Of a DNA stretch of 64,000 nucleotides, positions 4,638-57,700 are shown piece after piece. Source of the DNA: Trypanosoma brucei (taxonomy: Eukaryota); NCBI GenBank assembly GCA_000002445.1, contig CM000207.1, positions 2,560,001-2,624,000 on the forward strand, given 5' to 3'. Below the pieces are notes generated by a model that did no database searches, was not told the DNA's origin, and saw only the letters and a program-made list of their open reading frames with translations. Both the position numbers and the translations under genes were made by a program. How positions within the stretch are numbered: position 1 is the stretch's first letter; every line of letters starts with the position of its first letter.

Positions 4638-4800
4638 TTGTGAGTGTGCATATACGAATATTATAATAAGAGCTGTAATAATAGTAATAATAATAATAAT
4701 GATAATGATAGATAATAATAATAATAAGAAAGTGTTGTGAGTGTGTGTATACGAATATTATAATAAGACAAGTAATAAAAAACATAATAAGAAAAGCAAT
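4631..4800 (+). repeat. VSG 70-bp repeat, about 2 units
   Basis: gagtgtgttgtgagtgtgcatatacgaatattataataagag followed by (TAA)n/(TGA)n runs, twice. Confidence 0.85.
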
Positions 4801-24530: not shown

Positions 24531-24689
24531 TTTTTGATGAGAATATGCAATTCAGTGAAATTTCGAGAATTTTAAAATGTATATATATATTAGGAAAATT
24601 TGTACGAAAGGAGCACATAGGGGTAACGTAATATAGTGATAGGGTACGAAATTTTTACTATTTTAAAATTATCTGTATTTTTTATTTTT

Positions 24690-24800
24690 TATGAATTTTA
24701 GGGGTTATAGTCGTGATAATAATAACAAAACAAAAACAATCATAGTAATATGGTAATTTTAATAATTATTATGGAATTGTGTTTTGGGTGTGTATCACTA
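24690..24800 (+). repeat. Degenerate 70-bp-repeat-like sequence
   Basis: gtgataataataacaaaacaaaaacaatcatagtaatatggtaattttaataattattatggaattgtgttttgggtgtgtatcactattgtgg. Confidence 0.45.
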
Positions 24801-25650
24801 TTGTGGAGACAGTGATTGAGAAGCAGGAGTAGCAGGTACTATGTGGGTAAAAGAAGCGGTTAAATTTTATTTGAACACTACTAGACGTATACAAAAAGTT
24901 GCAGATATTAACTCTGGATTAGCAGGAGCAGAAAAATTATCCACAGCTGAACGGAAGAGTAAACACTGATAAATTTATGAAGGTAATTAAGCTGCTTGAT
25001 TGTATCCGCCATACCTCAGTGGCTTTCGAGAAGAAGCCTAGTAGTGGCGCAGATTTAGCGACAAGCTTTTAATTGTAACCAAACATATGTAAGGAAAACA
25101 ACTCAACAATTAACTGAGCTGATTCTCAGAGACATGATTCTTTACCACTCATAGTTGCCAAATGCTGATGCATTCGCCATGACCAAAGGGGGAAAAAAGC
25201 TCGACATGCTTATGGCGATAAAGATGTAATGAAGCCACATTCAATAGGGAGGTATAGAATGACCAGCCTATTGTGGTGATTGATTTTTGAACTAATGGAT
25301 AAAATTTATAGTCACACTCCCAAAAAGGTTAGTTGAAGTAATCTACTTACTAATCATAGAAGGATGTATGTTAAGTATTCTAGTTACTAAAGGCTTTAAA
25401 ATAAATAACCCAACGGCACCAAAGAAAACAGTGGACTATCAGCAGGAAATAAACCACTCAACAAACACCAACGACTCAGGGTGACCAGTGTGCACTACCA
25501 CAGGACAGGCATTCGCATGACTAATATTGCTGCTGCGAAATTTGCAAAGAAGCGACACAATAGTGGCAACTAAGTCACGCAGTTTAACTTTCAAAAATAC
25601 ACCCCCTGACATGACCATAAGCAATAGAACAAGGCAAGAAAGAACCATAC

Positions 25651-27062
25651 ATGCTTAATAAAGGTCGCTACCTCCTTATCTATCTTTTGGCCGCTGTGTC
25701 GTTGGCCAACTCCGCAAACGCAGCAGCAGGAGACGCCATAAAGAAGCAATACTGGACGAGCTTCTGCGATGTCGCAGTTGAAGCTGAGACAATACCGTCT
25801 CAAGCGATAACCAGCCTAGAGGCGGCGGCAACGGAGGGCCTAAACAAGTTCAAATTCCTACTAAAGGCGCAAATATACGCCGAAGGAAACTTGACAAGGC
25901 CGACGGCTCCCGAAGAAAGAATGCTATGGACGTTTGGCGCGCATGAAACAGAAAAGGCGTTCAATTACTATACCAGCGCTGCTCCAGGCCAGATAATAAC
26001 GGCGGTTAGGGATGCAGGACGACTGCAAGGAGCAATAGGTGAATGGATAAACCTGATGGCAGAAGGTTCAGACGGCACAGACGGATGTCTCAGCAACAAC
26101 GACGGTGGTGGCAACCCAATAAGCGGGAGAAACGCGCTGACTGGAGACATGTAAAAATGTAAACTGAAATGGGAACCGGTACACAAAGGACAGGTACAAG
26201 GTACTTTGCTTGGACCAACAGGCCTTACGGGTAGTTTCTCAACGGGCGTAGCCCACGGAAGCTTAGTCAACGGAAACAAAAAATGCGGCATAAATTCGCC
26301 AAACACAGGCTTCCTGTTAAACGACGCGGATACAAGCGGCAGCGGCAACGGCGCAAATGTAGCGGGCCACACTCCAAAGATGGCTGCTGGACTACTAACC
26401 ATAGACAACACAGGCCTAATAATCGAGGTGTTAGCTGACACAGAAACTAAGCAGGCAACACACCCTTACCTGCATTACGCAGTAAAAGCCAAAACGAACG
26501 TTCAGCAGATGTTCAACTCCGATATGCCGCAAACTTTAGAGACAGCAAAGACATCTGAGCAACTAAAGCGGGCAGCAAGAAGGCAACTACTAGGCAAAAA
26601 AGACAGTGAAACTTCCGAAGACAACCAGATACCCGACAAAATCAAAAGTGTATTCACGACCAACGACAAATACCTAGCGATCCTACACAAAAACATAGAC
26701 GCCATGCCTACACCCAAAGAGCTGACAGATGATAAGCAGGAAACCACCCTAGGCGAAATCAACGACGTGGACCTCCTAATTCGTCTGTATTTTTACTATG
26801 TGGATGCCAACAAGAGAAAACTGCAAAACACATTAGACGAGCTACGAAATGTAAATAAAAAGCAAGAACCAAAATCAGCAGAAGACAAGGAAAAAGAGTG
26901 CAATACCAAAGGCAATGATAAGCAAGAAGAGTGTGAAAAACTAGAGAGTCAAGGGTGTATTTTTAACAAGGAGGGCAAGAAGTGGAAAAAGTGCACATTG
27001 AGCGAGGAAGGCAAAAAAGGAAGGAGCTAAACAACAATCAGAAAAAGAAGGAGGGAAAGATG
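25651..27062 (+). pseudogene. VSG with a frameshift near 26160 and a 3' end truncated by the ingi fragment
   Basis: Signal MLNKGRYLLIYLLAAVSLANSANAAAGDAIKK... ORFs 25651..26154 and 26206..27030. The C-terminal domain ...ECNTKGNDKQEECEKLESQGCIFNKEGKKWKKCTLSEEGKKG... ends abruptly at ingi-derived sequence, with no GPI signal or 16-mer. Confidence 0.75.
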
Positions 27063-28134
27063 AGAATTTTAATTTTAATTTTCTTCGTGCCTTCGTGGGA
27101 GTTTCCCCCCACTGGCGCGGCCATCAGCCATCACCGTAGAGCCCTGAGATGCTATCGGTCTGGCGACTGTGGCAGAGTCTCCCTTTTTTTATTCATCCTA
27201 ATACACCCTCTATAATTTTTGTTGTAGCTCCGCAGTTGAACGGAATACAGCAGATGGGGCGAAAAGCCTCCCACTCCGGACTCTCCAAAAGATGTCAATT
27301 AGCAATCCTTTTGTTTTGATTTTTGTTATTCGTTTATTATTCTCTCCCCCTCTTTCTGTTCCTGTTGCTTGTTGACTGCATACCCCCTCTGTCTCTGAGG
27401 GTGTATGGACTATTCCTGCGTCCGGTGCTTTTCCTGCTAGCTCCACACTCGGCAATAAGGGGGGAAGTTGCAGAAAGGAAAGTGGGTTGTATAACTGTTA
27501 CCTTAGGTGAGGACTTCACCTGCAGCCGGCTCCGTTCAACCGCAATGAGAAACTGCGCCAGCCTTTTAGAGAAACATACATCCTGCACACACACACACAC
27601 ACACACCTTCCACCGCAAACCTGACACGTAACTCCTTCAAACTGGGACAGCTCATCAAGTGCAGCGACGTTTCTTCGAAGTCGCCGCGTTGGATGGTAAC
27701 AGCGCGCTCTACCTTCATACCGTGCATCTTCTTTTGATGTAGGGTGAGGCCAGTTTTGCTAGCACACTGCCTTCCGCATGTCGGGCACACCAACATGGAT
27801 GTGTTTGTATGCGGGGAATCAGTGGCACACAATTTTGTGCTTTTGCTGCATTTAAGCTCGACTCCCTCACCTTTGTGGAAAGCCTTACAGTGTCGGATGA
27901 GGGAGTCCCTGCAACTGAGCACTTTTTGACACACACCACACTGCACCTCGCCTTTCCCCGGGACGTCAACATTTCCCCCACGGGCACGCTTACGAGGGAA
28001 TTGCAACACCACTACGGTACCGTCCTCCGTCACTATGCTCTTATGTTTGAATTTCTTGTGTAGTGACAGGGAAGAACGTGTACCGAAGCTCGCCTCGCAC
28101 AGGTCACATTGAAACGGCAGCTTCCGTGTATCCT
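27063..28134 (-). mobile_element. ingi 3' fragment (about 1.07 kb; zinc-finger region to poly(A)-like tail)
   Basis: It is the reverse complement of ingi from ...aggatacacggaagctgccgtttcaatgtgacctg... to the 3' end. A T-rich tail (aattttaattttaatttt) sits at the low-coordinate end. The minus-strand ORF 27566..28189 reads ...RKLPFQCDLCEASFGTRSSLSLHKKFKH... Confidence 0.88.
27586..27608. repeat. (CA/GT)n microsatellite expansion inside the ingi fragment
   Basis: The fragment has cacacacacacacacacac where the full copies have gtgagtgtgtgc. Confidence 0.8.
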
Positions 28135-31100
28135 CCCTGGTGATGCTGGTCACATCAACGTGGTGCCAGGATCCAGTACCCCGTATCATCGGGTGAAGCC
28201 AAGAGCCAGCAGCGTTCCTTTCATGGGGAACACTGCTGTGCTCTGGCTACGGCATCATACAGCACAGGGATCAGCAGCGTCTTGCTGGGACACCGTTTTT
28301 CATTTGTCGGTCCCTGGGCACGTGGCTAGCGTGCCATCAGCAGTATCATCCGCACTAAGATGCTGCTGTCCGGTGATGTGGAAGAGAATCCCGGCCCGTC
28401 GTTGCGCGGGATGCAGTGGAACTGCGCCGGGCTATCTCAAGGAAAGAGATTAGCACTCCACAAAACCCTTGTTGATGAGCGGATCGCCTTTTGTCTGTTG
28501 AGCGAGACAAGGATGACGCCTGGAGAGGCGGCTTTCTTTAGCGTTGCTGGCTACCAACATCACGGAATAGCTCGTAACTGCAAAGGAGGTGGTGTATCAA
28601 TACTAATGAGGGAGGACCTACCAGTCGAGACCGGTATGGCCGTTGTTGGTCGCATTGAACGAGTGCATGCAACAATTCACCCTGCACGTGGAACGGCGCT
28701 GACTGTCACGTCGGCATACATCCCACCAAAACACACCTTCACGGCAACTGACCTAGATACGCTTCTGACAACTGACGGTGCCCAGCTCATCGGTGCAGAC
28801 GCTAACGCACACGCGTTGGCATGGGATCGCGCGAGCCCACCAAATACCAAGGGTGAAACCCTCACACAGTGGTGCATTGACAACCAGTTTCTGGTATGTA
28901 ACACTGGTGAGTGCACCAGGTACACGCGCCACCACGGGGAGTCCACCCCTGATGTGACACTGTCAAGGAATTTCACAGTGTACACGTGGACATCGCTGTA
29001 TTCTCCCGATAGCGATCACCATAACATATTTTTCGACGTTATCGTTGGAGACGACACAGATGCACTGAGTTGCCCGCGGCTTCGAAAGCCCATGTACGCA
29101 TGGCTAAAAGCTAACTGGAGGAATTTCCGTCTCAAGGTTGACGAGCTCTGCAGGAAAATTGGTAGAGAGAAGAATGTCAACACTCTGGAACAGAAATTGA
29201 GCTCCGCCATCCGCACTGCGACGAATGTCTCCGTCCCCCGTGGCTGCAGAGCAACGCCACCACATTGGACACCTGCGCTCGCGAAAATCGATGAAGAGAT
29301 CGCTGGATGCGCACCCTCCCACCGAAGGGAAAAGTTGGTAGCCACGCGTAAGCAGATCCTGGACCGTACCACAAAGAAGAGATGGAGCACGCTATGCTCC
29401 AGACTTGCGGTGTCAGACTGCTGCAGTTGGCACATTGTCAAGAAGGTATATGCGCCACGACCACTAACCACACTGGCTGTACTTGTTGATAACGCGGCCA
29501 TCACGGACTACCATCAAGCTGAGAGGTTCAGTAAACTGTACTCGTCCCGTGCAAGAAGGCACCCCGACTCACACCCACCGGCACCAATAAAGACGATAGC
29601 GAGTGAGTTCAGCCCCATCACGATGGCTGAACTATGGAGATCGATCAAACTGCTTCCGACCGGATCCGCAGCAGGACCTGATTGCTTATACAACGAGGCA
29701 ATACAACATCTCGGTAGAACAGCGCTGAATGTTGTTCTGAGGCTATTCAATGAGAGCCTACGAACGGGAGTCGTGCCGCGTGCATGGAAGACTGGTGTTA
29801 TCATCCCCATCCTGAAGGCCGGAAAAAAGGCGGAGGACCTCGATTCTTACAGGACTGTGACGCTCACGAGCTGTCTCTGCAAAGTCATGGAACGCATAAT
29901 TGCCGCGAGGCTTAGAGACACTGTTGAGTCCCAGCTGACGCCGCAGCAATCAGGCTTTCGCCCCGGATGCTCAACGCTCGAACAACTCCTGCACGTCCGC
30001 GCTGCCCTCTGCCGCCCTACGCACCAATATCGTACGGGTGCTGTATTCGTTGACTACGAGAAGGCATTCGATACAGTAGACCACGACAAAATTGCGAGGG
30101 GAATGCACAGAATGAAGGTATCACCCCACATTGTGAAGTGGTGCGTATCATTTCTGAGTAACCGAACTGGCAGAGTGAGATTCAAGGAGAAGCTTTCCAG
30201 AAGCAGAACATTTGAGCGAGGAGTGCCACAAGGAACTGTCCTTGGCCCAATCATGTTCATTATTGTCATGAACTCGTTGAGCCAACGCCTTGCAGAAGTG
30301 CCGTTACTGCAGCACGGATTCTTTGCAGACGACCTGACGCTACTTGCGAGGCACACAGAGAGGGATGTCATCAACCACGCACTACAATGCGGCCTCAACG
30401 TGGTGTTACAGTGGTCAAAAGAGTACTTCATGTCTGTCAACGTAGCGAAAACGAAGTGCACACTCTTCGGGTGTATAGAGCGCCACCCCCTTACATTGCA
30501 ACTGGACGGCGAAAGAATAGGAGCTGACAGGATACCGAAGCTTCTAGGAGTAACATTCCAGTGTCAGCAGGGGATGGCAACACATGCGGCCGAAACGAGA
30601 CGCAAGATGGACTTCCGACTACTGCAGATAGTGTCCATCTCAGCTTCTACATGGGGGCCAAGACGACAAGTGCTGAGAGCTTTTTATCTAGCACTCGTAC
30701 AGGCACACACCATGTATGGCATTAAGGTATGGTACTGGGACGCTTCGGAACGAAGTCGTGACCTCCTTGCATCAGCACAACACAAAGCCAGTCGCATCAT
30801 AGCCGGCATACCGCATGGGACGCGCAAAGAGGACTCTCTGCTGGAAGCAAACCTCCTGCCACTCAAGACGGCCACTCTTGTGCACAGCATGAAATTCATG
30901 CTGATGTGTGAGTCACGAGGCGGATGCTTGCGGCGCAGTGCTGAAGAAGCATACCACAGCAAACACCCAGTCAGAGCCCAACATTCCCGCATCATGCGGT
31001 CCTATCCACACCTCCGCATTGAGCCACGCGAGCACCCACTAGAGACACCGACGCTCCGCCACAGCTGCCGACCGCTATTTCACACGCAGATAAAGCCTGT

Positions 31101-33388
31101 GTGCGCTGATGACCCTGACGATGTCAAAAGGGAGGCTTCCGAAAAGTGGATTGAACGGCATTTTTCACGGAGGGGGAAGGAGCTACCGCGGCGAGAGCAC
31201 TACGAATTGTGGACTGATGGATCCGTGTCCCTCGGTGAGAAGTCCGGAGCAGCTGCCCTGCTCTATAGAAACAATACGCTTATTTGTGCACCTAAAACCG
31301 GAGCAGGGGAACTCTCATGCAGTTACAGAGCGGAATGCGTAGCATTAGAGATAGAACTGCAACGGCTGCTGAAATGGCTTCCGGCATACAGAAGCACACC
31401 TAGCAGGTTGTCCATCTTCTCTGACTCGCTGTCAATGTTAACAGCACTGCGGACAGGCCCCCTAGCCGTAACGGACCCAATTCTAAGACGACTATGGAGG
31501 CTTCTGCTTCAAGTTCAGAGAAGGAAGATACGTATCCGACTTCAATTTGTGTTTGGCCATTGTGGCGTGAAACGGAATGAAGTTTGTGATGAGATGGCCA
31601 AAAAGGCCGCTGATTTACCACAGTTGCGAGACACATGGATCCCCGACATCATTGCTTATGCGAAGCGAGTGCTTAAGTCGGAAGAAGTCCATGAGAACAC
31701 TCATAGGTTTGGTATCACGGGCAACCACTTTCCAACAAAGCATAAAGAAGAACTGACGAGGGAAGAAGAAACGGCACTGGCACGCTTTCGGGTTGGGTCT
31801 TCAAGGCACTATGGATGGATGTTGCGAAAGATTAACCCGAGTGTGCCTCCACAGTGCCGATGGTGTAACCCGCAACATGCAGCGATAGGACCAACAATAC
31901 AAACAGCCCCAACTGTTGCGACACGCACTCTTCAAAGAACCTCCGAACCGACCAAATGTACGGAATGTGATGCCACATACCAATGCCGCTCGAGTACTGT
32001 AACGCACATGGTAAACAAACATGGCTTTGTGCGAGCTGATGCCCTCCGGAGGATCAAATACGGCGATGCAACACCTGCAGTGGATATCCCCCCGGAGCCC
32101 CCTCCAGTGGTGGCGATCGTTCCTCTACCATCGAGCACACGAGTCCCGATGAGACCGCAGGTACTTCATTGTACCATCTGTGCCTCCAAATTCGCAGTGC
32201 CAGGCCGACTATTACACCACCTTAGAACAATACATGGTATAGGCAGCGGTAGTTGCCGCGTGAAAAGGGGGCGAGAGAACGAGGACTCAGTGCAAGGAGA
32301 TGGTAGAGCCCCAGCAGCGCCAGTCTCTCAGGATACACGGAAGCTGCCGTTTCAATGTGACCTGTGCGAGGCGAGCTTCGGTACACGCTCTTCCCTGTCA
32401 CTACACAAGAAATTCAAACATAAGAGCATAGTGACGGAGGACGGTACCGTAGTGGTGGTGCAATTCCCTCGTAAGCGTGCCCGTGAGGGAAACGTTGACG
32501 CCACTGGGAAAGGAGAGGTGCAGTGTGGTGTGTGTCAAAAAGTGCTCAGTTGCAGGGACTCCCTCATCCGACATTGTAAGGCTTTTCACAAAGGTGAGGG
32601 AGTCGAGCTTAAATGCAGCAAAAGCACAAAATTTTGTGCCACTGATTCCCCGCATACAAACACATCCATGTTGGTGTGCCCGACATGCGGAAGGCAGTGT
32701 GCTAGCAAAACTGGCCTCACCCTACATCAAAATAAGATGCACGGTATGAAGGTAGAGCGCGCTGTTACCAGCCAACGCGGCGACTGCGAAGAAACGTCGC
32801 TGCACTTGATGAGCTGCCCCGGTTTGAAGGAGTTACGTGTCAGGTTTGCGGTAGAAGGTGAGTGTGTGCAGGATGTATGTTTCTCTAAAAGGCTGGCGCA
32901 GTTTCTCATTGCGGTTGAACGGAACCTGCCGCAGGTGAAGTCCTCACCTAAGGTAACAGTCATACAACCCACTCTCCCTTCTGCAACTTCCCCCCTTATT
33001 GCCGAGTGTGGAGCTAGCAGGAAAAGCACCGGACGCAGGAATAGTCCAGACACCCTCAGAGACAGAGAGGGTATGCAGTCAACAAGCAACAGGAACAGAA
33101 AGAGGGGGAGAGAATAATAAACGAATAACAAAAATCAAAACAAAAGGATTGCTAATTGACATCTTTTGGAGAGTCCGGAGTGGGAGGCTTCTCGCCCCAT
33201 CTGCTGTATTCCGTTCAACTGCGGAGCTACAACAAAAATTATAGAGGGTGTATTAGGCCGAAAAAAAAAGGGAGACTCTGCCACAGTCGCCAGACCGATA
33301 GCATCTCAGGGCTCTACGGTGATGGCTGATGGCCGCGCCAGTGGGGGGAAACTCTCACGAAGGCACGAAGAAAATTCAAGAAAAAAAT
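28135..33388 (+). mobile_element. ingi, full length (about 5.25 kb)
   Basis: The 5' end ccctggtgatgctggtcacatcaacgtggtgccagg... is the RIME/ingi 5' terminus. There is a single long ORF. The 3' end is ...cacgaaggcacgaagaaaattcaagaaaaaaa. No TSD is detectable. Confidence 0.9.
28360..33117 (+). CDS. ingi polyprotein ORF, uninterrupted 1585 aa: 2A-like leader, AP-endonuclease, reverse transcriptase, RNase H, four C2H2 zinc fingers
   Basis: MLLSGDVEENPGP (2A-like D-x-E-x-NPGP). Endonuclease-like WNCAGL...LSETRM. RT motifs FRPGCSTLEQLL, FVDYEKAFDTVDHD and FADDLTLLA. RNase H motif WTDGSVSLGEKSGAAA. Fingers HCTICASKF...HHLRTIH, FQCDLCEASF...HKKFKH, VQCGVCQKVL...RHCKAFH and CPTCGRQC...LHQNKMH. Confidence 0.9.
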   Translation: MLLSGDVEENPGPSLRGMQWNCAGLSQGKRLALHKTLVDERIAFCLLSETRMTPGEAAFFSVAGYQHHGIARNCKGGGVSILMREDLPVETGMAVVGRIERVHATIHPARGTALTVTSAYIPPKHTFTATDLDTLLTTDGAQLIGADANAHALAWDRASPPNTKGETLTQWCIDNQFLVCNTGECTRYTRHHGESTPDVTLSRNFTVYTWTSLYSPDSDHHNIFFDVIVGDDTDALSCPRLRKPMYAWLKANWRNFRLKVDELCRKIGREKNVNTLEQKLSSAIRTATNVSVPRGCRATPPHWTPALAKIDEEIAGCAPSHRREKLVATRKQILDRTTKKRWSTLCSRLAVSDCCSWHIVKKVYAPRPLTTLAVLVDNAAITDYHQAERFSKLYSSRARRHPDSHPPAPIKTIASEFSPITMAELWRSIKLLPTGSAAGPDCLYNEAIQHLGRTALNVVLRLFNESLRTGVVPRAWKTGVIIPILKAGKKAEDLDSYRTVTLTSCLCKVMERIIAARLRDTVESQLTPQQSGFRPGCSTLEQLLHVRAALCRPTHQYRTGAVFVDYEKAFDTVDHDKIARGMHRMKVSPHIVKWCVSFLSNRTGRVRFKEKLSRSRTFERGVPQGTVLGPIMFIIVMNSLSQRLAEVPLLQHGFFADDLTLLARHTERDVINHALQCGLNVVLQWSKEYFMSVNVAKTKCTLFGCIERHPLTLQLDGERIGADRIPKLLGVTFQCQQGMATHAAETRRKMDFRLLQIVSISASTWGPRRQVLRAFYLALVQAHTMYGIKVWYWDASERSRDLLASAQHKASRIIAGIPHGTRKEDSLLEANLLPLKTATLVHSMKFMLMCESRGGCLRRSAEEAYHSKHPVRAQHSRIMRSYPHLRIEPREHPLETPTLRHSCRPLFHTQIKPVCADDPDDVKREASEKWIERHFSRRGKELPRREHYELWTDGSVSLGEKSGAAALLYRNNTLICAPKTGAGELSCSYRAECVALEIELQRLLKWLPAYRSTPSRLSIFSDSLSMLTALRTGPLAVTDPILRRLWRLLLQVQRRKIRIRLQFVFGHCGVKRNEVCDEMAKKAADLPQLRDTWIPDIIAYAKRVLKSEEVHENTHRFGITGNHFPTKHKEELTREEETALARFRVGSSRHYGWMLRKINPSVPPQCRWCNPQHAAIGPTIQTAPTVATRTLQRTSEPTKCTECDATYQCRSSTVTHMVNKHGFVRADALRRIKYGDATPAVDIPPEPPPVVAIVPLPSSTRVPMRPQVLHCTICASKFAVPGRLLHHLRTIHGIGSGSCRVKRGRENEDSVQGDGRAPAAPVSQDTRKLPFQCDLCEASFGTRSSLSLHKKFKHKSIVTEDGTVVVVQFPRKRAREGNVDATGKGEVQCGVCQKVLSCRDSLIRHCKAFHKGEGVELKCSKSTKFCATDSPHTNTSMLVCPTCGRQCASKTGLTLHQNKMHGMKVERAVTSQRGDCEETSLHLMSCPGLKELRVRFAVEGECVQDVCFSKRLAQFLIAVERNLPQVKSSPKVTVIQPTLPSATSPLIAECGASRKSTGRRNSPDTLRDREGMQSTSNRNRKRGRE

Positions 33389-34399
33389 TTAGCTGTTGTT
33401 GGTAGTGCCATAACTGTCGGCTCTGCGGTCTGATAATGCTGATTTGCTGCTGAGATTAGACCGCTGATCTGCACTCCTAGAGCTGTCGCCTCCGCTGTTT
33501 TCGCTGGTATTTCGTCTAGTATTTTAGCTGCTTCTTCTAGTTTTGAGGCCCATGGTTTATTTACCCCCACATCTCTCTGGTTGCCGCGTAATATTTCGTG
33601 TACTTTATGCATAAGTTGCTGGTCGCCCCGCTATTTAATGTGGCAGCTTCGGCTCCTAGTAAATGTTCTACTGTCTTTCCCTCCTTTGCTGTTTGCACGC
33701 GGGCTTCTAGGCTTGCTATGACTAACATGATCACTGTCCCTGTGTGTTTGCTGCTTTCGCCTCTGTGGCGCCAGCCTTTTACTTTTGTTTCGGCTGCTAG
33801 CGGCGCGCTTCCCCAACCTACAGAAGTTCCTGTATTTTTGTATTTGTCGCTGTTTCGACCAGCAGAAAGCCAGAAGTGCCAAAGAATGTCGTTCCAAACT
33901 GACATGCTTGCATTTTCCGCGGACTCCGAGGTCCAGGCAGTTGCTTGCTAGAGTGTTTTGGTCGTCTCGGCTTTGAAGTCAGTTGCTCCTTCGCCCTACA
34001 GCGCCTCTGAAATCTTTTCCTTTCGGCCTTGCTTAACCCTGTCGATATTTCTTGTTTGAGCCTGGTGTAGGTGTTGCCAAGTGGTTGCAAGCCGTTTAAC
34101 GTGTCATTTAAATTTTTTTCAGCAGTTATTCTTGCCCAGTTTTCGATTAGTCTCGGATTTTTTTGTAGCGAGGCCTTTCCGTTTACGGGTTTGTTTAGTT
34201 TTGTTTCTGCTCAACCCATTTGTTCCACTTTGTTACCCAGTTTTTTTAGGTTTTCCTCTTTGTGTTTTGTTTTCCCATTTACTGTTTGCCCCTCAGCCTT
34301 CGAATAAGCTTTGTCAGTCCTGGCTGCTGGTTGACATATTCATCTGGTTTAGATTCTCGATGTCAGCGGTGAAGTCGACGACTGCGGTGGGCTGCTCCC

Positions 34400-37300
34400 C
34401 GCCTGCTCCCTGAATGTTGACGAAAGTGCAGTGCAGCCCGAAGTCTGCCGCATCCTTCTCTTGCAGAGTGACTTCTCTGCGGCGTAAAGAAAGCAGCGCC
34501 GCCGTAATGGTCGTTGCTAAAAAGCTTCGTGCATTGTCGTTGCTATTTGGTAGTTGAACCGGGTTCTGCCGCTTATGTTGTGAAGGTTGCTTGTGGTCTC
34601 TGCTGTCACTCACTCGGTATAGGTTTTTAAAATCCGAAAAATTGGAAGAAATATGGCTTCCATAATTCGTATATTGCGTCGGCAAAAAACATTTGGTCTG
34701 GTGGGAGAGATAGCACTTTATTCAACAATTCACCTTTTTCTTCTTTTTATATTTAAAATATCTGTTTTTTTTAACGGTCTCCGCGAGTGACTCTGAAAGT
34801 GTCTGCTAAAGTTATGGTGCATGTGCCGCCTGCGCTGTTCGGTCATCTATGGATTGCATTGGTGCACAAAACTCGCTTTCAAAATCCATGCAGAGTACAT
34901 GTTGATCCCTTATCTGCTCTGCTTCCCTTGGGAACTTATTTGTGAACCTGGCTCTGTTGTGCCTTGCGTATGGTTGAAAACTTCGCCTATTCACTACGTG
35001 TCATGGTATAGTGGATTGTAGGCTAGTTGTTAAAACTGCTTTGTTTTTTCCTTCTTTGGTTCTTGTTGTCCGATATGGTCTGTTTTTTGTGGCTGTTTGT
35101 GGTTTTCTATCTGGTTGCATCTCCTCTTCTTGCAGGTTGAGCTGGTATTTAAATTCCCCTCATGTGCTTGTACCATTATTGGTTAGCATTATCAGCGTCA
35201 TTAATTTCGGCGTTTGCTATTCTACCGCTGAAAAGCCGTTGTATCCTCGGAGTTTTTCAGAGTGATAAGAGCCAACACTGTTTAAGCTGGCGACAGCGTA
35301 CAGAGTTCTCTTTTGCTCTGATCATTGCTTTCTCTTCCTCTTGACATTTTTGTGCTAGTAATTTGCTTCAAGAGAACGAAAGGTGGCGTGCGAGGTTGAT
35401 TTTGGATATCATTTGTTGGTCCTCAACGGTTGAAAAAAAGGAGCACGTACCACTGCTGTATTTTATGCTATGACGATATAAAATGCAAGCAGTTACACTA
35501 CATTGTTTGCAGTTTATAATTCCGATCCATATTGACCTATATTTGTATCGAAAAAAGATTTAAATTTATTGTGTTTTCTCTACTCTATCAGCTTCAAAAA
35601 TGCGTGACAGCTTTTGACTCAAAATAAAAAATAATGCTTTTTGTTTCTCAAGAACTTGAGTGGCCTTTTGGTTTTTTCCTGAGTTGTACGCGACAGTATT
35701 TAAGCTCCCTTTTAAGTTTAAGTAATTTAGTCCACAAAGCTGCATTTGCTTTATTGATTTGCACCATTAGTTTTGCGTCAGAAATAACGCTTAAATTAAT
35801 TAATCGCTCTCTGAAAATTTTTAGTGTCTGTCCAGTATACCCACATGGAACTGTTGTTGTTTTATGACAAATTTTTTTACTTCATAAACCTCTTACAACG
35901 GCACATAAATACTACACATTAACAATTTTCGCTTTTTTATTTTTATTTTGATGTCTTTAAAAATTTTAAAATAACATTTTCCTTAAAATTTTTCTTGATA
36001 ACATCATATTGTTACCCACGAATATCTTCGACTGTTAGTATATCCAATGACAAGAAAAACTTCAAAATAACATCAAACTTACCTAATCCCTTCTGCCATA
36101 TTCTTTTGTTTCTGAACATTTTTATTTACAGCTGGATGTTTGGATCCACTATAAGATCAAAAAATACAGTTTACACCATCTTTGGCTTTTTCTATCCTTT
36201 TTCAGTTAAATATGGAGCAAAATCTCCACCTGCGTAATTTGCTTCTTTTATGTGCTGTTGCGCATGTCTTAGCTTCATGCTGTACTTACTTTCCTCTTTT
36301 TTGTTTTCTGTTGCTTTTGCGTGTAGTGTACCGCCTTTATTTTGTTTGCGAGGTCTTCCACTTTGTCATTTCTCTGGAAACCGCAATGCAAAAACACAAA
36401 CTGAAACGACATGGATACTCTCAGTTTCATGAAGTGTATGATCAGATCCTAAATGCGTCGTAGCATGGTATCTGTCACTTCTGTAGGATCCGTTTTAAGT
36501 GCCATTAATAAAGATAACATGTCTGTAAATATTGCCACTTTCGTTTTTATGCTCTCGTTGATCTTTATTACTGTTTTGAGTTTCATAAGTCCTGCATCCA
36601 TGGCTACACACTCGGCTCTGTAGCTTCATGCTAACCTGACTGCTCCTTTTTTCACTTTTACCGCATTACCTTGTCAAGGATGTATTATCGCGGCGGCACC
36701 AGAGGGTTCGTCCAGTATCACTGACCCATCTGTCCACACTTGGTAATTGTAGTCTTTGAGTTTACGTAACTTTTGAATTGTGTGTCTTTTCTCGCTGTCG
36801 GAGGCATCAGAATGGAGACCATCTGGTGCTGTAGTGTTGAGGTATGGTCTCCTCGCCAGTTGCAATGCGCTTGCCGTGTGTGGTTCCTCCGGTTCGTCTA
36901 CTTCCTCATACAAGTATGACACATTCTCCAGGAGCGTGCATATCATATGACTAGGTGGGAAGATTCTTTCCACTGTGTCGGATGATGCCTTACTATTCGC
37001 CTTCCTTGTTCAATAGTATTATATTGCTCGTCTATGAGTAATATAATCTATCTGGTGAAGGAGGGCCTCCTTTATGACAACATGCCTGCTCGCTTACGTT
37101 GGAACACCCGCAATAACATGTGCCTCCTGCGCTTGCACTCGTTCAAGCTGCTTTTTGTCTGATTGAAAGGCATTGAACCACCATGCCGCAATACCATAGC
37201 ATAATTTTTCCTGGATTAAGGCTAAAAAAAAATGCTCTAACACTTTCTTTACTCGCTCCCTATTCAGGTGATGCAACAGCCCTTAGTTTCATTAATCTCA

Positions 37301-44050: not shown

Positions 44051-47000
44051 CCCTGGCGATGCCGGCCACCTCAACGTGGTGCCATGGTCCAGTACCCCGT
44101 ATCATCGGGGGAAGCCAAGAGCCAGCAACGTTCCTCTCATGGGGAACACTGCTGTGCTCCGGCTACGGCATCATACAGCACAGGGATCAGCAGCGTCTTG
44201 CTGGGACACCGTTTTTCATTTGTCGGTCCCTGGGCACGTGCCAGCGTGCCATCAGCAGTATCATCCGCACTAAGATGCTGCTGTCCGGTGATGTGGAAGA
44301 GAATCCCGGCCCGTCGTTGCGCGGGATGCAGTGGAACTGCGCCGGGCTATCTCAAGGAAAGAGATTAGCACTCCACAAAACCCTTGTTGATGAGCGGATC
44401 GCCTTTTGTCTGTTGAGCGAGACAAGGATGACGCCTGGAGAGGCGGCTTGCTTTAGCGTTGCTGGCTACCAACATCACGGAATAGCTCGTAACTGCAAAG
44501 GAGGTGGTGTATCAATACTAGTGAGGGAGGACCTACCAGTCGAGACCGGTATGGCCGTTATTGGTCGCATTGAACAAGTGCATGCAACAATTCACCTTGC
44601 ACGTGGAACGGCGCTGACTGTCACGTCGGCATACATCCCACCAAAACACACCTTCACGGCAACTGACCTAGATACGCTTCTGACGACTGACGGTGCCCAG
44701 CTCATCGGTGCAGACGCTAACGCACACGCGTTGGCATGGGATCGCGCGAGCCCACCAAATACCAAGGGTGAAACCCTCACACAGTGGTGCATTGACAACC
44801 AGTTTCTGGTATGTAACACTGGTGGGTGCACCAGGTACGCGCGCCACCACGGGGAGTCCACCCCTGATGTGACGCTGTCAAGGAATTGCACAGTGTACAC
44901 GTGGACATCGCTGTATTCTCCCGATAGCGATCACCATAACATATTTTTCGACGTTATCGTTGGAGACGACACAGATGCACTGAGTTGCACGCGGCCTCGA
45001 ATGCCCATGTACGCATGGCTAAAAGCTAACTGGAGGAATTTCCGTCTCAAGGTTGACGAGCTCTGCAGGAAAATTGGTAGAGAGAAGAACGTCAACACCC
45101 TGGAACAGAAATTGAGCTCCGCCATCCGCATTGCGACGAAGGTCTCCGTCCCCCGTGGCTGCAGAGCAACGCCACCACATTGGACACCTGAGCTCGCGAA
45201 ACTCGATGAAGAGATCGCTGGATGCGGACCCTCCCACCGAAGGGAAAAGTTGGTAGCCACGCGTAAGCAGATCCTGGACCGTACCACAAAGAAGAGATGG
45301 AGCACGCTATGCTCCAGACTTGCGGTGTCAGACCGCTGCAGTTGGCACATGGTCAAGAAGGTATATGCGCCACGACCACTAACAACACCGGCTGTACTTG
45401 TAGATAACGCGGCCATCACGGACTACCGTCAAGCTGAGAGGTTCAGTAAACTGTACTCGTCCCGTGCAAGAAGGCACCCCGACTCACACCCACCGGCACC
45501 AATAAAGACGATAGCGAGTGAGTTCAGTCCCATCACGATGGCTGAACTACGGAGATCGATCAAACTGCTACCGAGTGGATCCGCAGCCGGACCTGATTGC
45601 TTATACAACGAGGCACTGCAACATCTCGGCAGAACAGCGCTGAATGTTGTTCTGAGGCTATTCAATGAGAGCCTACGAACGGGAGTCGTGCCGCCTGCAT
45701 GGAAGACTGGTGTTATCATCCCCATCCTGAAGGCCGGAAAAAAGGCGGAGGACCTCGATTCTTACAGGACTGTGACGCTCACGAGCTGTCTCTGCAAAGT
45801 CATGGAACGCATAATTGCCGCGAGGCTTAGAGACACTGTTGAGTCCCAGCTGACGCCGCAGCAATCAGGCTTTCGCCCCGGATGCTCAACGCTCGAACAA
45901 CTCCTGCACGTCCGCGCTGCCCTCTGCCGTCCCACGCACCAATCTCGTACGGGTGCTGTATTCGTTGACTACGAGAAGGCATTTGATACAGTAGACCACG
46001 ACAAAATTGCGAGGGAAATGCACAGAATGAAGGTATCACCCTACATTGTGAAGTGGTGCGTATCATTTCTGAGTAACCGAACTGGCAGAGTGAGATTCAA
46101 GGAGAAGCTTTCCAGAAGCAGAACATTTGAGCGAGGAGTGCCACAAGGAACTGTCCTTGGCCCAATCATGTTCATTATTGTCATGAACTCGTTGAGCCAA
46201 CGCCTTGCAGAAGTGCCGTTACTGCAGCACGGATTCTTTGCAGACGACCTAACGCTACTTGCGAGGCACACAGAGAGGGATGTCATCAACCACACACTAC
46301 AATGCGGTCTAAACGTGGTGTTACAGTGGTCAAAAGAGTACTTCATGTCTGTCAACGTAGCGAAAACAAAGTGCACACTCTTCGGGTGTATAGAGCGCCA
46401 CCCCCTTACATTGCAACTGGACGGCGAAAGAATAGGAGCTGACAGGATACCGAAGCTTCTAGGAGTAACATTCCAGTGTCAGCAGGGGATGGCAACACAT
46501 GCGGCCGAAACGAGACGCAAGATGGACTTCCGACTACTGCAGATAGTGTCCATCTCAGCTTCTACATGGGGGCCAAGACGACAAGTACTGAGAGCTTTTT
46601 ATCTAGCACTCGTACAGGCACACACCATGTATGGCATTGAGGTATGGTACTGGGACGCTTCGGAACGGAGTCGCGACCTCCTCTCAGCAGCACAACACAA
46701 AGCCAGTCGCATCATAGCCGGCATACCGCATGGGACGCGCAAAGAGGACTCTCTGCTGGAAGCAAACCTCCTGCCACTCAAGACGACCACTCTTGTGCGC
46801 AGCATGAAATTCATGCTGATGTGTGAGTCACGAGGCGGATGTTTGCGGCGCAGTGCTGAAGAAGTATACCACAGCAAACACCCAGTCAGAGCCCAACATT
46901 CCCGCATCATGCGGTCCTACCCCCACCTCCGCATTGAGCCACGCGAGCACCCACTAGAGACATCGACGCTCCGCCACAGCTGCCGACCGATATTTCACAC

Positions 47001-49308
47001 GCAGATAAAGCCTGTGTGCGCTGATGACCCTGACGATGTCAAAAGGGAGGCTTCCGAAAAGTGGATTGAACGACATTTTGCACGGAGGGGGAAGGAGCTA
47101 CCGCGGCGAGAGCACTACGAATTGTGGACTGATGGATCCGTGTCCCTCGGTGAGAAGTCCGGAGCAGCTGCCCTGCTCTACAGAAACAACACGCTGATTT
47201 GCGCACCTAAGACAGGAGCAGGGGAACTCTCATGCAGTTACAGAGCGGAATGCGTAGCATTAGAGATAGAACTGCAACGGCTGCTGAAATGGCTTCCGGC
47301 ATACAGAAGCACACCTAGCAGGTTGTCCATCTTCTCTGACTCGCTGTCAATGTTAACAGCACTGCAGACAGGCCCCCTAGCCGTAACGGACCCAATTCTA
47401 AGACGACTATGGAGGCTTCTGCTTCAAGTTCAGAGAAGGAAGATACGTATCCGACTGCAATTTGTGTTTGGCCATTGTGGCGTGAAACGGAATGAAGTTT
47501 GTGATGAGATGGCCAAAAAGGCCGCAGATTTACCACAGTTGCGAGACACATGGATCCCCGACATCATTGCTTATGCGAAGCGAGTGCTTAAGTCGGAAGA
47601 AGTCCATGAGAACACTCATAGGTTTGGTATCACGGGCAACCACTTTCCAACAAAACATAAGGAAGAACTGACGAGGGAAGAAGAAACGGCACTGGCACGC
47701 TTTCGGGTTGGGTCTTCAAGACACTATGGATGGATGTTGCGAAAGATCAACCCGAGTGTGCCTCCACAGTGCCGATGGTGCAACCCGCAACATGCAGAGA
47801 TAGGGCCAACAATACAAACAGCCCCAACTGTTGCGACACGCACTCTTCAAAGAACCTCCGAACCGACAAAATGTACGGAATGTGATGCCACATACCAATG
47901 CCGCTCGAGTGCTGTAACGCATATGGTAAACAAACATGGCTTTGTGCGAGCTGATGCCCTCCGGAGGATCAAATACGGCGATGCAACACCTGCAGTGGAT
48001 ATCCCCCCGGAGCCCCCTCCAGTGGTGGCGATCGTTCCTCTACCATCGAGCACACGAGTCCCGATGAGACCGCAGGTGCTTCATTGTACCATCTGTGCCT
48101 CCAAATTCGCAGTGCCAGGCCGACTACTACACCACCTTAGAACAATACATGGCATAGGCAGCGGTAGTTGCCGCGTGAAAAGGGGGCGAGAGAACGAGGA
48201 CTCAGTGCAAGGAGATGGTAGAGCCCCAGCAGCGCCAGCCTCTCAGGATACACGGAAGCTGCCGTTTCAATGTGACCTGTGCGAGGCGAGCTTCGGTACA
48301 CGCTCTTCCCTGTCACTACACAAGAAATTCAAACATAAAAGCATAGTGATGGAGGACGGTACCGTGGTGTTGGTGCAATTCCCTCGTAAGCGTGCCCGTG
48401 AGGGAAACGTTGACGTCCCGGGGAAGGGCGAGGTGCAGTGCGGTGTGTGCCAAAAAGTGCTCAGTTGCAGGGACTCCCTCATCCGACACTGCAAGGCTTT
48501 TCACAAAGGTGAGGGAGTCGAGCTTAAATGCAGCAAAAGCACAAAATTTTGTGCCACTGATTCCCCGCATACAAACACATCCATGTTGGTGTGCCCGACA
48601 TGCGGAAGGCAGTGTGCTAGCAAAACTGGCCTCACCCTACATCAAAAGAAGATGCACGGTATGAAGGTAGAGCGCGCTGTTACCAGCCAACGCGGCGACT
48701 GCGAAGAAACGTCGCTGCACTTGATGAGCTGTCCCGGTTTGAAGGAGTTACGTGTCAGGTTTGCGGTAGAAGGTGAGTGTGTGCAGGATGTATGCTTCTC
48801 CAAAAGGCTGGCGCAGTTTCTCATTGCGGTTGAACGGAGCCGGCCGCATGTGAAGTCCTCACCTAAGGTAACAGTCATACAACCCACTCTCCCTTCTGCA
48901 ACTTCCCCCCTTATTGCCGAGTGTGGAGCTAGCAGGAAAAGCATCGGACGCAGGAATAGTCCAGACACCCTTAGAGACAGAGGAGGTATGCTGTCAACAA
49001 GCAACAGAAACAGAAAGAGGAGAAGAGAATAATAAACGAATAACAAAAATAAAAACAAAAGGATTGCTAATTGACATCTTTTGGAGAGTCCGGGGTGAAG
49101 GGATTCTCGCCCCATCTGCTGTATTCCGTTCAACTGCGGAGCTACAACAAAAATTATAGAGAGTGTGTGTGTTAGGATGAATGAAAAAGGGAGACTCTGC
49201 CACAGTCGCCAGACCGATAGCATCTCAGGGCTCTACGGTGATGGCTGATGGCCGCGCCAGTGGGTGGAAACTCTCACGAAGGCACGAAGAAAATTCTAAA
49301 AAAAAAAA
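44051..49308 (+). mobile_element. ingi, full length, flanked by a perfect 12-bp TSD
   Basis: The 5' end is ccctggcgatgccggccacctcaacgtggtgcc. The 3' end is ...cacgaaggcacgaagaaaattctaaaaaaaaaaa. It has one uninterrupted ORF and is about 97-98% identical to the copy at 28135. Confidence 0.92.
44275..49032 (+). CDS. ingi polyprotein ORF (2A-like, EN, RT, RNase H, 4x C2H2)
   Basis: It starts MLLSGDVEENPGP at 44275 and reads through to the stop at 49032. In this copy the frame is also open upstream to 44017 because the in-frame stop seen in copy 2 (tggctagc) is absent (tgccagc). The start at the conserved ATG is inferred. Confidence 0.88.
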   Translation: MLLSGDVEENPGPSLRGMQWNCAGLSQGKRLALHKTLVDERIAFCLLSETRMTPGEAACFSVAGYQHHGIARNCKGGGVSILVREDLPVETGMAVIGRIEQVHATIHLARGTALTVTSAYIPPKHTFTATDLDTLLTTDGAQLIGADANAHALAWDRASPPNTKGETLTQWCIDNQFLVCNTGGCTRYARHHGESTPDVTLSRNCTVYTWTSLYSPDSDHHNIFFDVIVGDDTDALSCTRPRMPMYAWLKANWRNFRLKVDELCRKIGREKNVNTLEQKLSSAIRIATKVSVPRGCRATPPHWTPELAKLDEEIAGCGPSHRREKLVATRKQILDRTTKKRWSTLCSRLAVSDRCSWHMVKKVYAPRPLTTPAVLVDNAAITDYRQAERFSKLYSSRARRHPDSHPPAPIKTIASEFSPITMAELRRSIKLLPSGSAAGPDCLYNEALQHLGRTALNVVLRLFNESLRTGVVPPAWKTGVIIPILKAGKKAEDLDSYRTVTLTSCLCKVMERIIAARLRDTVESQLTPQQSGFRPGCSTLEQLLHVRAALCRPTHQSRTGAVFVDYEKAFDTVDHDKIAREMHRMKVSPYIVKWCVSFLSNRTGRVRFKEKLSRSRTFERGVPQGTVLGPIMFIIVMNSLSQRLAEVPLLQHGFFADDLTLLARHTERDVINHTLQCGLNVVLQWSKEYFMSVNVAKTKCTLFGCIERHPLTLQLDGERIGADRIPKLLGVTFQCQQGMATHAAETRRKMDFRLLQIVSISASTWGPRRQVLRAFYLALVQAHTMYGIEVWYWDASERSRDLLSAAQHKASRIIAGIPHGTRKEDSLLEANLLPLKTTTLVRSMKFMLMCESRGGCLRRSAEEVYHSKHPVRAQHSRIMRSYPHLRIEPREHPLETSTLRHSCRPIFHTQIKPVCADDPDDVKREASEKWIERHFARRGKELPRREHYELWTDGSVSLGEKSGAAALLYRNNTLICAPKTGAGELSCSYRAECVALEIELQRLLKWLPAYRSTPSRLSIFSDSLSMLTALQTGPLAVTDPILRRLWRLLLQVQRRKIRIRLQFVFGHCGVKRNEVCDEMAKKAADLPQLRDTWIPDIIAYAKRVLKSEEVHENTHRFGITGNHFPTKHKEELTREEETALARFRVGSSRHYGWMLRKINPSVPPQCRWCNPQHAEIGPTIQTAPTVATRTLQRTSEPTKCTECDATYQCRSSAVTHMVNKHGFVRADALRRIKYGDATPAVDIPPEPPPVVAIVPLPSSTRVPMRPQVLHCTICASKFAVPGRLLHHLRTIHGIGSGSCRVKRGRENEDSVQGDGRAPAAPASQDTRKLPFQCDLCEASFGTRSSLSLHKKFKHKSIVMEDGTVVLVQFPRKRAREGNVDVPGKGEVQCGVCQKVLSCRDSLIRHCKAFHKGEGVELKCSKSTKFCATDSPHTNTSMLVCPTCGRQCASKTGLTLHQKKMHGMKVERAVTSQRGDCEETSLHLMSCPGLKELRVRFAVEGECVQDVCFSKRLAQFLIAVERSRPHVKSSPKVTVIQPTLPSATSPLIAECGASRKSIGRRNSPDTLRDRGGMLSTSNRNRKRRRE

Positions 49309-57409: not shown

Positions 57410-57700
57410 AACAAAGTAACAAAAGCAGGAGAAATAAGAGACGATTTGTCATTGGCAATAAAACTGGGATCCTTGCACTCTTTTCCATCCCATTTACAGT
57501 TGCTGTCCTTTTCACAAGCTTGTCGATTAGTGCCATGTCTGGTGCACTTATATTTCTTCTCATCTTTCCCTCCTTCTTTTGCTGCTTCTTTTTATAATTG
57601 TTTTTTGCCTTCCCCACCCAATGTGCACTTTTTACTTTCGTTTCCTTTTAGATTGAAAACGCAGCCCCGACAGTTGAGCGGCTTTAGACGTCTGCTGGTA
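57410..57700 (-). pseudogene. VSG C-terminal-domain fragment (5'-truncated)
   Basis: The minus strand encodes ...RQACEKDSNCKWDGKECKDPSFIANDKSSLISPA.., a Cys-rich C-terminal domain plus part of the GPI-signal region. Only about 0.3 kb is present. Confidence 0.5.

What the first reader, a model, noticed from the sequence alone, without database searches (positions are those of the whole stretch)
28100..28170. Abrupt ingi-into-ingi junction: a minus ingi body meets the exact 5' terminus of a plus full ingi, with no TSD
The minus-strand ingi fragment ends at ...ccgtgtatcct. The next base begins the canonical 5' terminus (ccctggtgatgc...) of a plus-strand full-length ingi. The plus ingi 3' flank (tttagctgttgt) does not repeat the 5' flank, whereas the copy at 44051 has a perfect 12-bp TSD. 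This looks like a nested insertion followed by deletion or recombination of one flank, or a chimeric junction made by template switching or ectopic recombination. The intact full-length ORF of the plus copy argues the event was recent.
Basis: seen in the sequence. Interest (0 to 1): 0.55.

Follow-up and report, generated by a model that had tools for sequence, protein, structure and literature searches.

The report
Head-to-head ingi retrotransposon junction, no duplication
In a Trypanosoma brucei surface-antigen gene array, a full-length ingi retrotransposon begins exactly where an older, opposite-strand ingi fragment is cut off and lacks the usual 12-bp flanking duplication; this looks like an ordinary nested insertion followed by exchange of one flank, not a new mechanism.

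Summary
The window is T. brucei brucei TREU927 subtelomeric VSG array DNA. A minus-strand ingi fragment (M, 27067-28134, ingi positions 4196-5253, A-rich tail facing left) abuts, with no gap or overlap, base 1 of a plus-strand full-length ingi. That copy (B, 28135-33387) has an intact 1585-aa ORF. B has no target-site duplication (TSD), nor does the M+B composite, even allowing shifts. Copy C (44051-49308) has a perfect 12-bp TSD.

New context: M interrupts the C-terminal domain of a plus-strand VSG pseudogene, and B's poly(A) abuts a minus-strand VSG pseudogene cut just after its N-terminal domain. M+B therefore bridges exactly the convergent strand switch of the array, and both VSG 3' ends are missing.

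Best reading (about 0.45): B retrotransposed into antisense M. Homologous recombination with another plus-strand ingi then swapped B's 3' flank, as a deletion or an ectopic crossover.

Rivals are insertion-coupled deletion, an assembly mis-join through the 5.25-kb repeat, and dual-primed bridging. Same-RNA twin priming or snap-back is rejected.

No T. brucei DNA was reachable in the public collections, so the partner sites could not be sought. This is a known kind of event and of low-to-moderate interest.

The parts
27067..28134 (-). M: the 3'-terminal 1068 bp of an ingi (ingi positions 4196-5253) on the minus strand. Its A-rich tail lies at the left end (27067-27082 on the + strand reads ttttaattttaatttt). 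It is cut off at its 5' side at 28134.
   Evidence: It is 95.8% identical to B's 3' region. It has a 10-bp indel at ingi position 4723 that breaks the ORF.
28135..33387 (+). B: full-length ingi of 5253 bp, running from the exact 5' terminus ccctgg to its poly(A).
   Evidence: colinear with TSD-defined copy C from base 1
28360..33117 (+). [quoted passage not shown] A 2A-like DVEENPGP motif lies at 28375-28398.
28123..28146 (+). The junction itself: tccgtgtatcct|ccctggtgatgc, with 0 bp gap, overlap or filler.
32330..33387 (+). B's own 3' region. It is the inverted-repeat partner of M, separated from it by 4.2 kb.
27055..27066 (-). M's 3' flank. Read on the minus strand it is ttctcatctttc, which matches the TSD part of the ingi4 target signature at 3 of 3 specified positions. 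No second copy lies next to an ingi 5' end.
33388..33399 (+). B's 3' flank tttagctgttgt. It is an orphan half of a TSD, matching 2 of 3 signature positions, the same as copy C's TSD.
25651..27066 (+). VSGx: an A-type VSG pseudogene truncated within its C-terminal domain by M. It lacks about 190 bp of C-terminal domain and the 3'UTR 16-mer.
33388..34685 (-). VSGy: a B-type VSG pseudogene. Its N-terminal domain is complete (Pfam VSG_B profile 3-315 plus a weak match to 320-350). It is cut about 26 codons after the N-terminal domain by B's poly(A) junction. Its C-terminal domain and 3'UTR are missing.
57557..57640 (-). Paralogous VSG C-terminal domain showing the uninterrupted ('empty') form of M's target. 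It reads ...ggagggaaagatgagaa|gaaatataagtgcacc...
44051..49308 (+). Copy C: reference full-length ingi with a perfect 12-bp TSD (44039-44050 equals 49309-49320). Its target scores 7 of 10 on the ingi4 signature.
1..4641 (+). Copy A: ingi cut at its 5' side by the window edge. Its 3' end is replaced by a 70-bp repeat.

Best explanation
Proposed sequence of events, all inferred from the present structure:

(1) An ingi (M) inserted by target-primed reverse transcription, in minus orientation, into the C-terminal-domain region of a plus-strand VSG pseudogene (VSGx).

(2) A full-length ingi (B) later inserted, in plus orientation, into M at M's position 4195/4196. This produced the precise junction between M's body and B's 5' terminus.

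(3) Another plus-strand ingi (B') sat in a minus-strand VSG pseudogene (VSGy) with the TSD tttagctgttgt.

(4) Homologous recombination between B and B' followed, either as an intrachromosomal deletion between direct repeats or as an ectopic crossover between subtelomeres. It left one hybrid ingi with B's 5' flank and B''s 3' flank. It removed B's 3' TSD, M's 5' 4.2 kb, both VSG 3' ends and B''s 5' target.

The product fuses two convergent VSG arrays through a head-to-head ingi pair.

Shown directly: the junction, the absence of any TSD, the two truncated VSGs, and the strand switch sitting exactly at M+B.

Inferred: the order of events and the recombination step.
For: - The junction is exact at B's first base and at an internal antisense ingi position. 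That is the form expected of a full-length insertion, whose 5' end is set by the Pr77/HDV-like ribozyme (PMC4035085).
- Both outer junctions look like genuine endonuclease-type sites: an A-rich tail followed by a T-rich 12-mer. M's 12-mer matches the TSD part of the published ingi4 signature (PMC3820030) at 3 of 3 positions, and B's at 2 of 3.
- M's target, reconstructed from a paralogue, scores 7 of 10. Only 0.5% of window positions reach that score.
- B's 5' flank inside M scores 5 of 10, including the GG. About 10% of random positions reach this score.
- VSGx and VSGy each lack their 3' end, and no VSG 3'UTR 16-mer lies between 24.5 and 42.3 kb. One recombination explains every missing piece.
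- B is a block mosaic relative to copies A and C: 46 runs against 72.7 expected, z = -4.5. So sequence exchange among ingi copies has occurred in B's history.
- A second ingi in the same window (A) also had its 3' flank replaced.
- The literature states that ingi/RIME elements recombine and cause rearrangements (PMC2854126), that a 12-bp TSD is the rule, and that retroposons adjacent to other retroposons are frequent (PMC3820030).
- From my own knowledge, not tested here: homologous recombination is the dominant repair route in T. brucei, which lacks classical end-joining.
Against: - No partner site was found, neither the reciprocal product nor the B' 5' junction, because no T. brucei genome could be searched.
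- The signature match for B's site in M is only 5 of 10 and is poor near the nick, where 1 of the 4 T positions matches.
- The model needs four events.
- The mosaic pattern has several breakpoints rather than one crossover. The single-segment 3SEQ-like test is not significant (p = 0.098). The mosaic may therefore reflect the general history of the family rather than this event.
Confidence: 0.45

Rival explanations
1. Insertion-coupled deletion in a single retrotransposition event. B's reverse transcription was primed at the VSGy site (poly(A)|tttagctgttgt). The 3' end of its complete cDNA was then joined to a distant upstream break inside a pre-existing M, instead of to the normal second nick 12 bp away. 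This deleted M's 5' 4.2 kb, the end of VSGx, any intervening DNA and the end of VSGy. Human L1 insertions are known to do this.
For: - It needs only two events.
- It explains the absent TSD, the EN-type 3' junction and the poor nick-proximal match of the site in M, where 1 of 4 T positions fits.
- All missing pieces lie between the two junctions.
Against: - The junction has no microhomology or filler. From my own knowledge, T. brucei lacks classical end-joining and uses microhomology-mediated or homologous repair, so a blunt join would be unusual.
- Such events were not mentioned for ingi in the papers read.
- The distal part of the ingi4 signature, A, T and GG, is present upstream of B.
Confidence: 0.15
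2. Assembly artefact. The M|B junction and the poly(A)|VSGy junction are each real but belong to two different ingi loci, and the assembler joined them through the 5.25-kb ingi body.
For: - A mis-join through a repeat gives exactly the same picture as recombination: a 5' flank from one locus and a 3' flank from another.
- Rearrangements in repetitive regions are stated to be hard to resolve in these assemblies (PMC2854126).
- The strand switch coincides with the element.
Against: - B differs from copies A and C by 5-18 substitutions in every 500-bp window across its whole length. It is a distinct copy that reads of Sanger length could place.
- There are no Ns or cloning-site motifs at the junction.
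- Collapse with ingi copies outside the window cannot be excluded.
Confidence: 0.12
3. Dual-primed bridging, a twin-priming-like event. Two endonuclease nicks, one in VSGx and one in VSGy, each primed reverse transcription of an ingi RNA. One cDNA stopped after 1.07 kb (M) and the other was completed (B). Their 3' ends were then joined, deleting whatever lay between.
For: - Both outer ends are A-tail junctions with signature-like 12-mers.
- The two elements lie head to head.
- The composite sits exactly at the convergent join of two truncated VSGs.
Against: - M and B's 3' region differ by 4.2%. M groups with copy A at 6 sites where B groups with C, and M has a private 10-bp indel. Two different RNAs would therefore be needed.
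- Classical twin priming gives an inverted upstream segment of the same RNA with TSDs around the whole structure. Neither is seen.
- The left flank is not an inverted copy of the right flank, which rules out snap-back.
- There is no microhomology at the join.
Confidence: 0.05
4. Two independent head-to-head insertions followed by a random non-homologous deletion. One breakpoint happened to fall on B's first base.
For: It explains the missing VSG ends and the missing M 5' part.
Against: - It requires a breakpoint on the exact first base of a 5253-bp element, about 1 chance in 5000.
- There is no microhomology.
Confidence: 0.03

Closest known systems
Tbingi (ingi4 subclade) non-LTR retrotransposon insertions of T. 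brucei, with 12-bp TSD and relative site specificity (Bringaud et al. 2004, as summarised in PMC3820030)
   Same: B is 5253 bp long and has the ingi 5' terminus, a single long ORF with endonuclease, RT, RNase H and zinc-finger domains, and a poly(A) tail. It is 97% identical to a TSD-flanked copy in the same window.
   Different: It has no 12-bp TSD. Its 5' flank is another ingi in antisense, and its 3' flank belongs to an unrelated VSG.
Recombination between dispersed ingi/RIME copies causing rearrangements (stated in PMC2854126). It is analogous to L1/Alu recombination-mediated deletions that leave chimeric elements without matching TSDs (own knowledge).
   Same: One element carries two non-matching, individually plausible target flanks. 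Material that should lie between the flanks is lost. The body is a sequence mosaic.
   Different: The reciprocal or parental sites have not been identified, so the recombination is inferred and not demonstrated.
Retroposons adjacent to or tandem with other retroposons in trypanosome genomes (PMC3820030)
   Same: An ingi lies directly against another ingi-family element.
   Different: The described tandem pairs are head-to-tail and separated by a TSD. This pair is head-to-head, with no TSD, and the older element is cut internally.
L1 twin priming and L1 insertion-associated deletions in human cells (own knowledge: Ostertag and Kazazian 2001; Gilbert 2002; Symer 2002)
   Same: An inverted and a direct LINE segment lie together with poly(A)/poly(T) facing outwards. 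TSDs are absent and target DNA is lost.
   Different: The inverted segment duplicates the 3' end instead of being the upstream part. It comes from a different lineage. The direct segment is full length. There is no microhomology.

Membership tests
Tbingi (ingi4) retrotransposon, copy B | About 5.25 kb long, with the conserved 5' terminus/Pr77 signature and a 3' poly(A) | tested here: met
   B spans 28135-33387 (5253 bp). It is colinear from base 1 with TSD-defined copy C and ends in A7. Rfam has no model that detects the Pr77 ribozyme here.
Tbingi (ingi4) retrotransposon, copy B | Single long ORF with AP-endonuclease, RT, RNase H and zinc-finger domains | tested here: met
   The ORF at 28360-33117 matches Exo_endo_phos, RVT_1 (1.7e-43), RNase_H and zf-C2H2.
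Tbingi (ingi4) retrotransposon, copy B | 12-bp target-site duplication | tested here: not met
   tccgtgtatcct (5') against tttagctgttgt (3'). No shared 7-mer or longer within 100 bp, and the best 12-mer match is 7 of 12.
Tbingi (ingi4) retrotransposon, copy B | Upstream target signature AxxxxxxxTxxxGTxGGxTxxx^xTxTxxTxxxxx | tested here: inconclusive
   5 of 10 specified positions match. About 10% of all window positions score 5 or more, and copy C scores 7 of 10.
Nested transposable-element insertion | The host element is split into two parts flanking the insert, with a TSD made of host sequence | tested here: not met
   Only the host's 3' 1068 bp is present. The host 5' 4.2 kb and the TSD copy are absent from the window.
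Recombinant (flank-exchanged) element | The 5' and 3' flanks come from different bona fide target sites | tested here: met
   The 5' flank is antisense ingi. The 3' flank is a minus-strand VSG_B pseudogene cut after its N-terminal domain and has a signature-like 12-mer.
Recombinant (flank-exchanged) element | Orphan half-TSDs have matching partners at another element (reciprocal product or parent) | not testable with these tools
   There is no partner in the window. The collections hold no T. brucei DNA: a conserved ingi control pattern gave 0 hits, and TREU927 genes are not on record.
Recombinant (flank-exchanged) element | The body shows a switch of parental lineage | tested here: inconclusive
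   The runs test gives z = -4.5, but there are several blocks, the single-breakpoint statistic gives p = 0.098, and only three copies were compared.
L1-type twin priming | Inverted and direct segments are complementary parts of one RNA, and TSDs flank the whole structure | tested here: not met
   The inverted segment duplicates positions 4196-5253 that are also present in B. It is 4.2% divergent, of a different lineage and carries a 10-bp indel. The outer flanks are unrelated.
Insertion-coupled target deletion | An empty allele contains the DNA that is absent at the insertion | not testable with these tools
   No other T. brucei genome or strain could be reached.

The most novel reading that the evidence does not exclude
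The M+B composite is the scar of a retrotransposition-mediated chromosomal rearrangement. It would be either an ingi insertion-coupled large deletion or a dual-primed bridging of two endonuclease nicks. In a single step it fused two convergent VSG arrays and destroyed two VSG 3' ends. That would be the first evidence that ingi retrotransposition itself, and not only homologous recombination between copies, reshapes the T. brucei antigen archive.
Probability: 0.2. Interest if true: 0.5.

Novelty: already known. Interest (0 to 1): 0.22.

Why it matters
Ingi elements are among the few dispersed 5-kb homologies inside the silent VSG archive. A documented case in which an ingi pair forms the exact seam between two oppositely oriented VSG arrays illustrates how retroelements shape the architecture of the antigen repertoire and inactivate VSGs. 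As a mechanism it adds nothing new unless the retrotransposition-coupled reading is shown. In practice it flags a place in the TREU927 reference where the assembly should be checked with long reads.

Tried and rejected
Searches that found nothing:
- Exact-protein look-ups of three VSGs and of the junction-spanning ORF in the look-up of encoding contigs: nothing on record. Yet listing of cluster members shows the VSGs are TREU927 proteins on a 3,057,547-bp contig.
- Homology search with the junction-spanning ORF 27566-28189(-): no hit at E <= 1e-10.
- Exact junction 23-mer in metagenome contigs and genome contigs: 0 hits. A conserved ingi 22-mer control also gave 0 hits, so these negatives are uninformative.
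- Search for half-TSD partners in the window: none next to an ingi end.
- Search for a degraded or shifted TSD for B or for M+B: none.
- Search for the missing VSGx 3' end near B: absent.
- Rfam scan of 26.8-33.7 kb: only two sub-threshold chance hits.

Tests that were not decisive:
- 3SEQ-like single-segment recombination test on B: p = 0.098.

Readings rejected:
- Large palindrome or fold-back origin of the strand switch. The only inverted non-ingi match in the window is a 400-bp, 73% VSG similarity.
- The DIRE at 36.3-39.6 kb as M's missing 5' part. It is only 30-37% identical at protein level.
- Inversion by recombination between inverted ingi copies as the sole event. That would give one full-length hybrid with a single poly(A) end, not two outward-facing tails.

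Papers not held: Bringaud 2004 (MBE) and Bringaud 2009 (Eukaryot Cell).
Full report
**Source and layout**

Four intact ORFs of the window are exact matches to annotated VSG proteins of Trypanosoma brucei brucei TREU927. These are EAN77413 and EAN77417-19, on a 3,057,547-bp contig.

Self-BLAST, ORF listing, tblastn with the ingi ORF, Pfam and the VSG 3'UTR 16-mer scan give this map:
- ingi A: 1-4641, plus strand, 5' end cut by the window edge.
- A plus-strand array of VSG genes and pseudogenes with 70-bp repeats: 5-27 kb.
- M: a minus-strand ingi fragment, 27067-28134.
- B: a plus-strand full-length ingi, 28135-33387.
- A minus-strand B-type VSG pseudogene: 33.4-34.7 kb.
- A minus-strand degenerate ingi-related element: 36.3-39.6 kb.
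- ingi C: 44051-49308, plus strand.
- A minus-strand VSG array running to 64 kb.

Seven 16-mers lie on the plus strand up to 24.5 kb and five on the minus strand from 42.3 kb. There are none in between, and the AT skew flips at 33-34 kb. M+B therefore sits exactly at a convergent strand switch of the array.

**Checking the observation**

B aligns with C from 28135 to 44051. Base 44051 is the first base after C's perfect 12-bp duplication, tttgtttgaagc at 44039-44050 and 49309-49320.

M's homology to the other copies ends at 28134, which is ingi position 4196. The same 12-mer, tccgtgtatcct, lies at that antisense position in A, B and C. There it continues gagagactgg, so the junction has no gap, filler or microhomology.

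B ends in A7 followed by tttagctgttgt. That 12-mer is unique in the window. Neither B alone nor M+B has a direct repeat at its ends, even allowing shifts.

B's ORF is open for 1585 aa and has all the expected domains.

**What the flanks are**

M's A-rich tail abuts ...ggagggaaagatgagaa inside the C-terminal-domain region of an A-type VSG pseudogene (VSGx, 25651-27066). A paralogous VSG at 57.5 kb carries the same sequence uninterrupted. It continues for about 190 bp of C-terminal domain plus 3'UTR. That continuation is absent anywhere near M or B.

B's poly(A) abuts a minus-strand B-type VSG pseudogene (VSGy). Its N-terminal domain is complete: VSG_B profile 3-315 at E = 4.5e-14, plus a weak match to 320-350. 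It is cut about 26 codons later.

So four things are missing: M's 5' 4.2 kb, VSGx's 3' end, VSGy's 3' end and B's own 5' target.

**Target-site signature**

The published signature for Tbingi/TbRIME is AxxxxxxxTxxxGTxGGxTxxx^xTxTxxTxxxxx, where the 12-bp TSD follows the first nick (PMC3820030). I scored every position of the window on both strands.

| Score | Share of window positions reaching it |
|---|---|
| 5 of 10 or more | 10% |
| 7 of 10 or more | 0.5% |

| Site | Score |
|---|---|
| Copy C's target | 7 of 10 |
| M's target, reconstructed from the paralogue | 7 of 10 |
| M's 3' flanking 12-mer | 3 of 3 TSD positions |
| B's 3' flanking 12-mer | 2 of 3 TSD positions |
| B's 5' flank inside M | 5 of 10 |

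B's 5' flank matches the distal A, T and GG but only one of the four nick-proximal T positions. Both outer junctions therefore look like true endonuclease-primed sites. The inner site is compatible with one but does not prove it.

**Relations among the copies**

M differs from B's 3' region by 4.2%. It shares six sites with A against B and C, and it has a private 10-bp indel that breaks the ORF. M and B therefore do not come from one RNA.

M's left flank is not an inverted copy of B's right flank. This rules out snap-back or self-templated copying, and it fails the defining features of L1-type twin priming.

B differs from A and C by 5-18 substitutions in every 500-bp window, so it is not a collapse of those two copies.

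Sites where B agrees with A or with C are strongly clustered: 46 runs against 72.7 expected, z = -4.5. B is A-like at about 636-1379 and 4029-5054 and C-like at about 3208-3987. The single-segment statistic is not significant (p = 0.098). This shows that ingi copies exchange sequence. It does not date or locate a single crossover.

**Mechanism**

The most economical explanation built from known processes is a nested insertion of B into antisense M, followed by homologous recombination between B and another plus-strand ingi (B') inserted in VSGy. An intrachromosomal deletion between direct repeats and an ectopic subtelomeric crossover both yield exactly the observed structure. Either one removes all four missing pieces at once.

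Supporting context:
- The literature states that ingi/RIME recombine and cause rearrangements (PMC2854126).
- Ingi occur within VSG arrays (PMC3553974).
- The exact 5' end of full-length copies is set by the Pr77/HDV-like ribozyme (PMC4035085).
- In the same window, ingi A also lost its 3' end, to a 70-bp repeat at an approximately 8-bp microhomology.

**Rivals**

- Insertion-coupled deletion is the strongest biological rival. B would be primed at VSGy and its cDNA end joined to a break in M. It needs fewer events and fits the weak nick-proximal match. However, it needs a blunt join with no microhomology, in an organism that to my knowledge lacks classical end-joining.
- An assembly mis-join through the 5.25-kb repeat would mimic recombination exactly. 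It cannot be excluded without reads.
- Dual-primed bridging and a random deletion are unlikely.

**Limits**

No T. brucei genome could be reached:
- Exact-protein look-ups failed.
- A homology search with the junction-spanning ORF returned nothing.
- The DNA collections lack even a conserved ingi control pattern.

Explicit probe sequences are given under next steps.

**Verdict**

The feature is real and the junction is of the insertion type. It is best read as a nested ingi insertion whose 3' flank was later exchanged by recombination, and it forms the seam between two convergent VSG arrays. This is a known kind of event in a well-studied genome and of low-to-moderate interest. The one reading that would raise it, a retrotransposition-mediated rearrangement, has roughly a one-in-five chance.

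Noticed in passing
window 4600-4830: Ingi copy A lacks its last ~130 bp and its poly(A). At ...tatagagagtgtgt (ending near 4641) it runs directly into a 70-bp-repeat unit (tgtgagtgtgcatatacgaatattataataagag, with a TAA run at 4676-4727). Ingi and the 70-bp repeat share about 8 bp (gagagtgt) at the join. This suggests a microhomology-mediated junction, and it is a second ingi in this window with a replaced 3' flank.
   Followed up: partly
window 24530-42268, with the switch at 27067-33387: The VSG array changes polarity convergently and exactly at the M+B composite. VSG 3'UTR 16-mers lie on the + strand up to 24530 and on the - strand from 42268, with none between. The AT skew flips at 33-34 kb.
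   Followed up: yes
window 36341-39569 (-): A degenerate ingi-related element (DIRE) on the minus strand. It is 30-37% identical to the ingi ORF over aa 1-1082 and has RVT_1 and RNase H remnants. Its 5' side lies next to a VSG C-terminal-domain remnant at 39850-40119.
   Followed up: partly
window 28375-28398: A 2A-like ribosome-skipping motif, DVEENPGP, lies at codons 6-13 of B's ORF. It is the known 2A-like sequence of trypanosome ingi/L1Tc elements (own knowledge).
   Followed up: no
window 28135-28160 versus 44051-44076: B's first 25 nt differ from TSD-defined copy C at four positions, three C-to-T and one C-to-A, within the Pr77/ribozyme region. Whether B's 5' promoter/ribozyme is still functional is unknown.
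   Followed up: no
window 28135-33387 versus copies at 1-4641 and 44051-49308: B is a block mosaic relative to A and C (46 runs against 72.7 expected). A, B and C each carry clustered private substitutions. This points to gene conversion among ingi copies or to recombinant source lineages.
   Followed up: partly
window 12355-12758 (+) versus 50725-50319 (-): The only non-ingi inverted similarity between the two arms is a 400-bp, 73% VSG-to-VSG match. The two arrays are therefore not mirror duplicates.
   Followed up: partly
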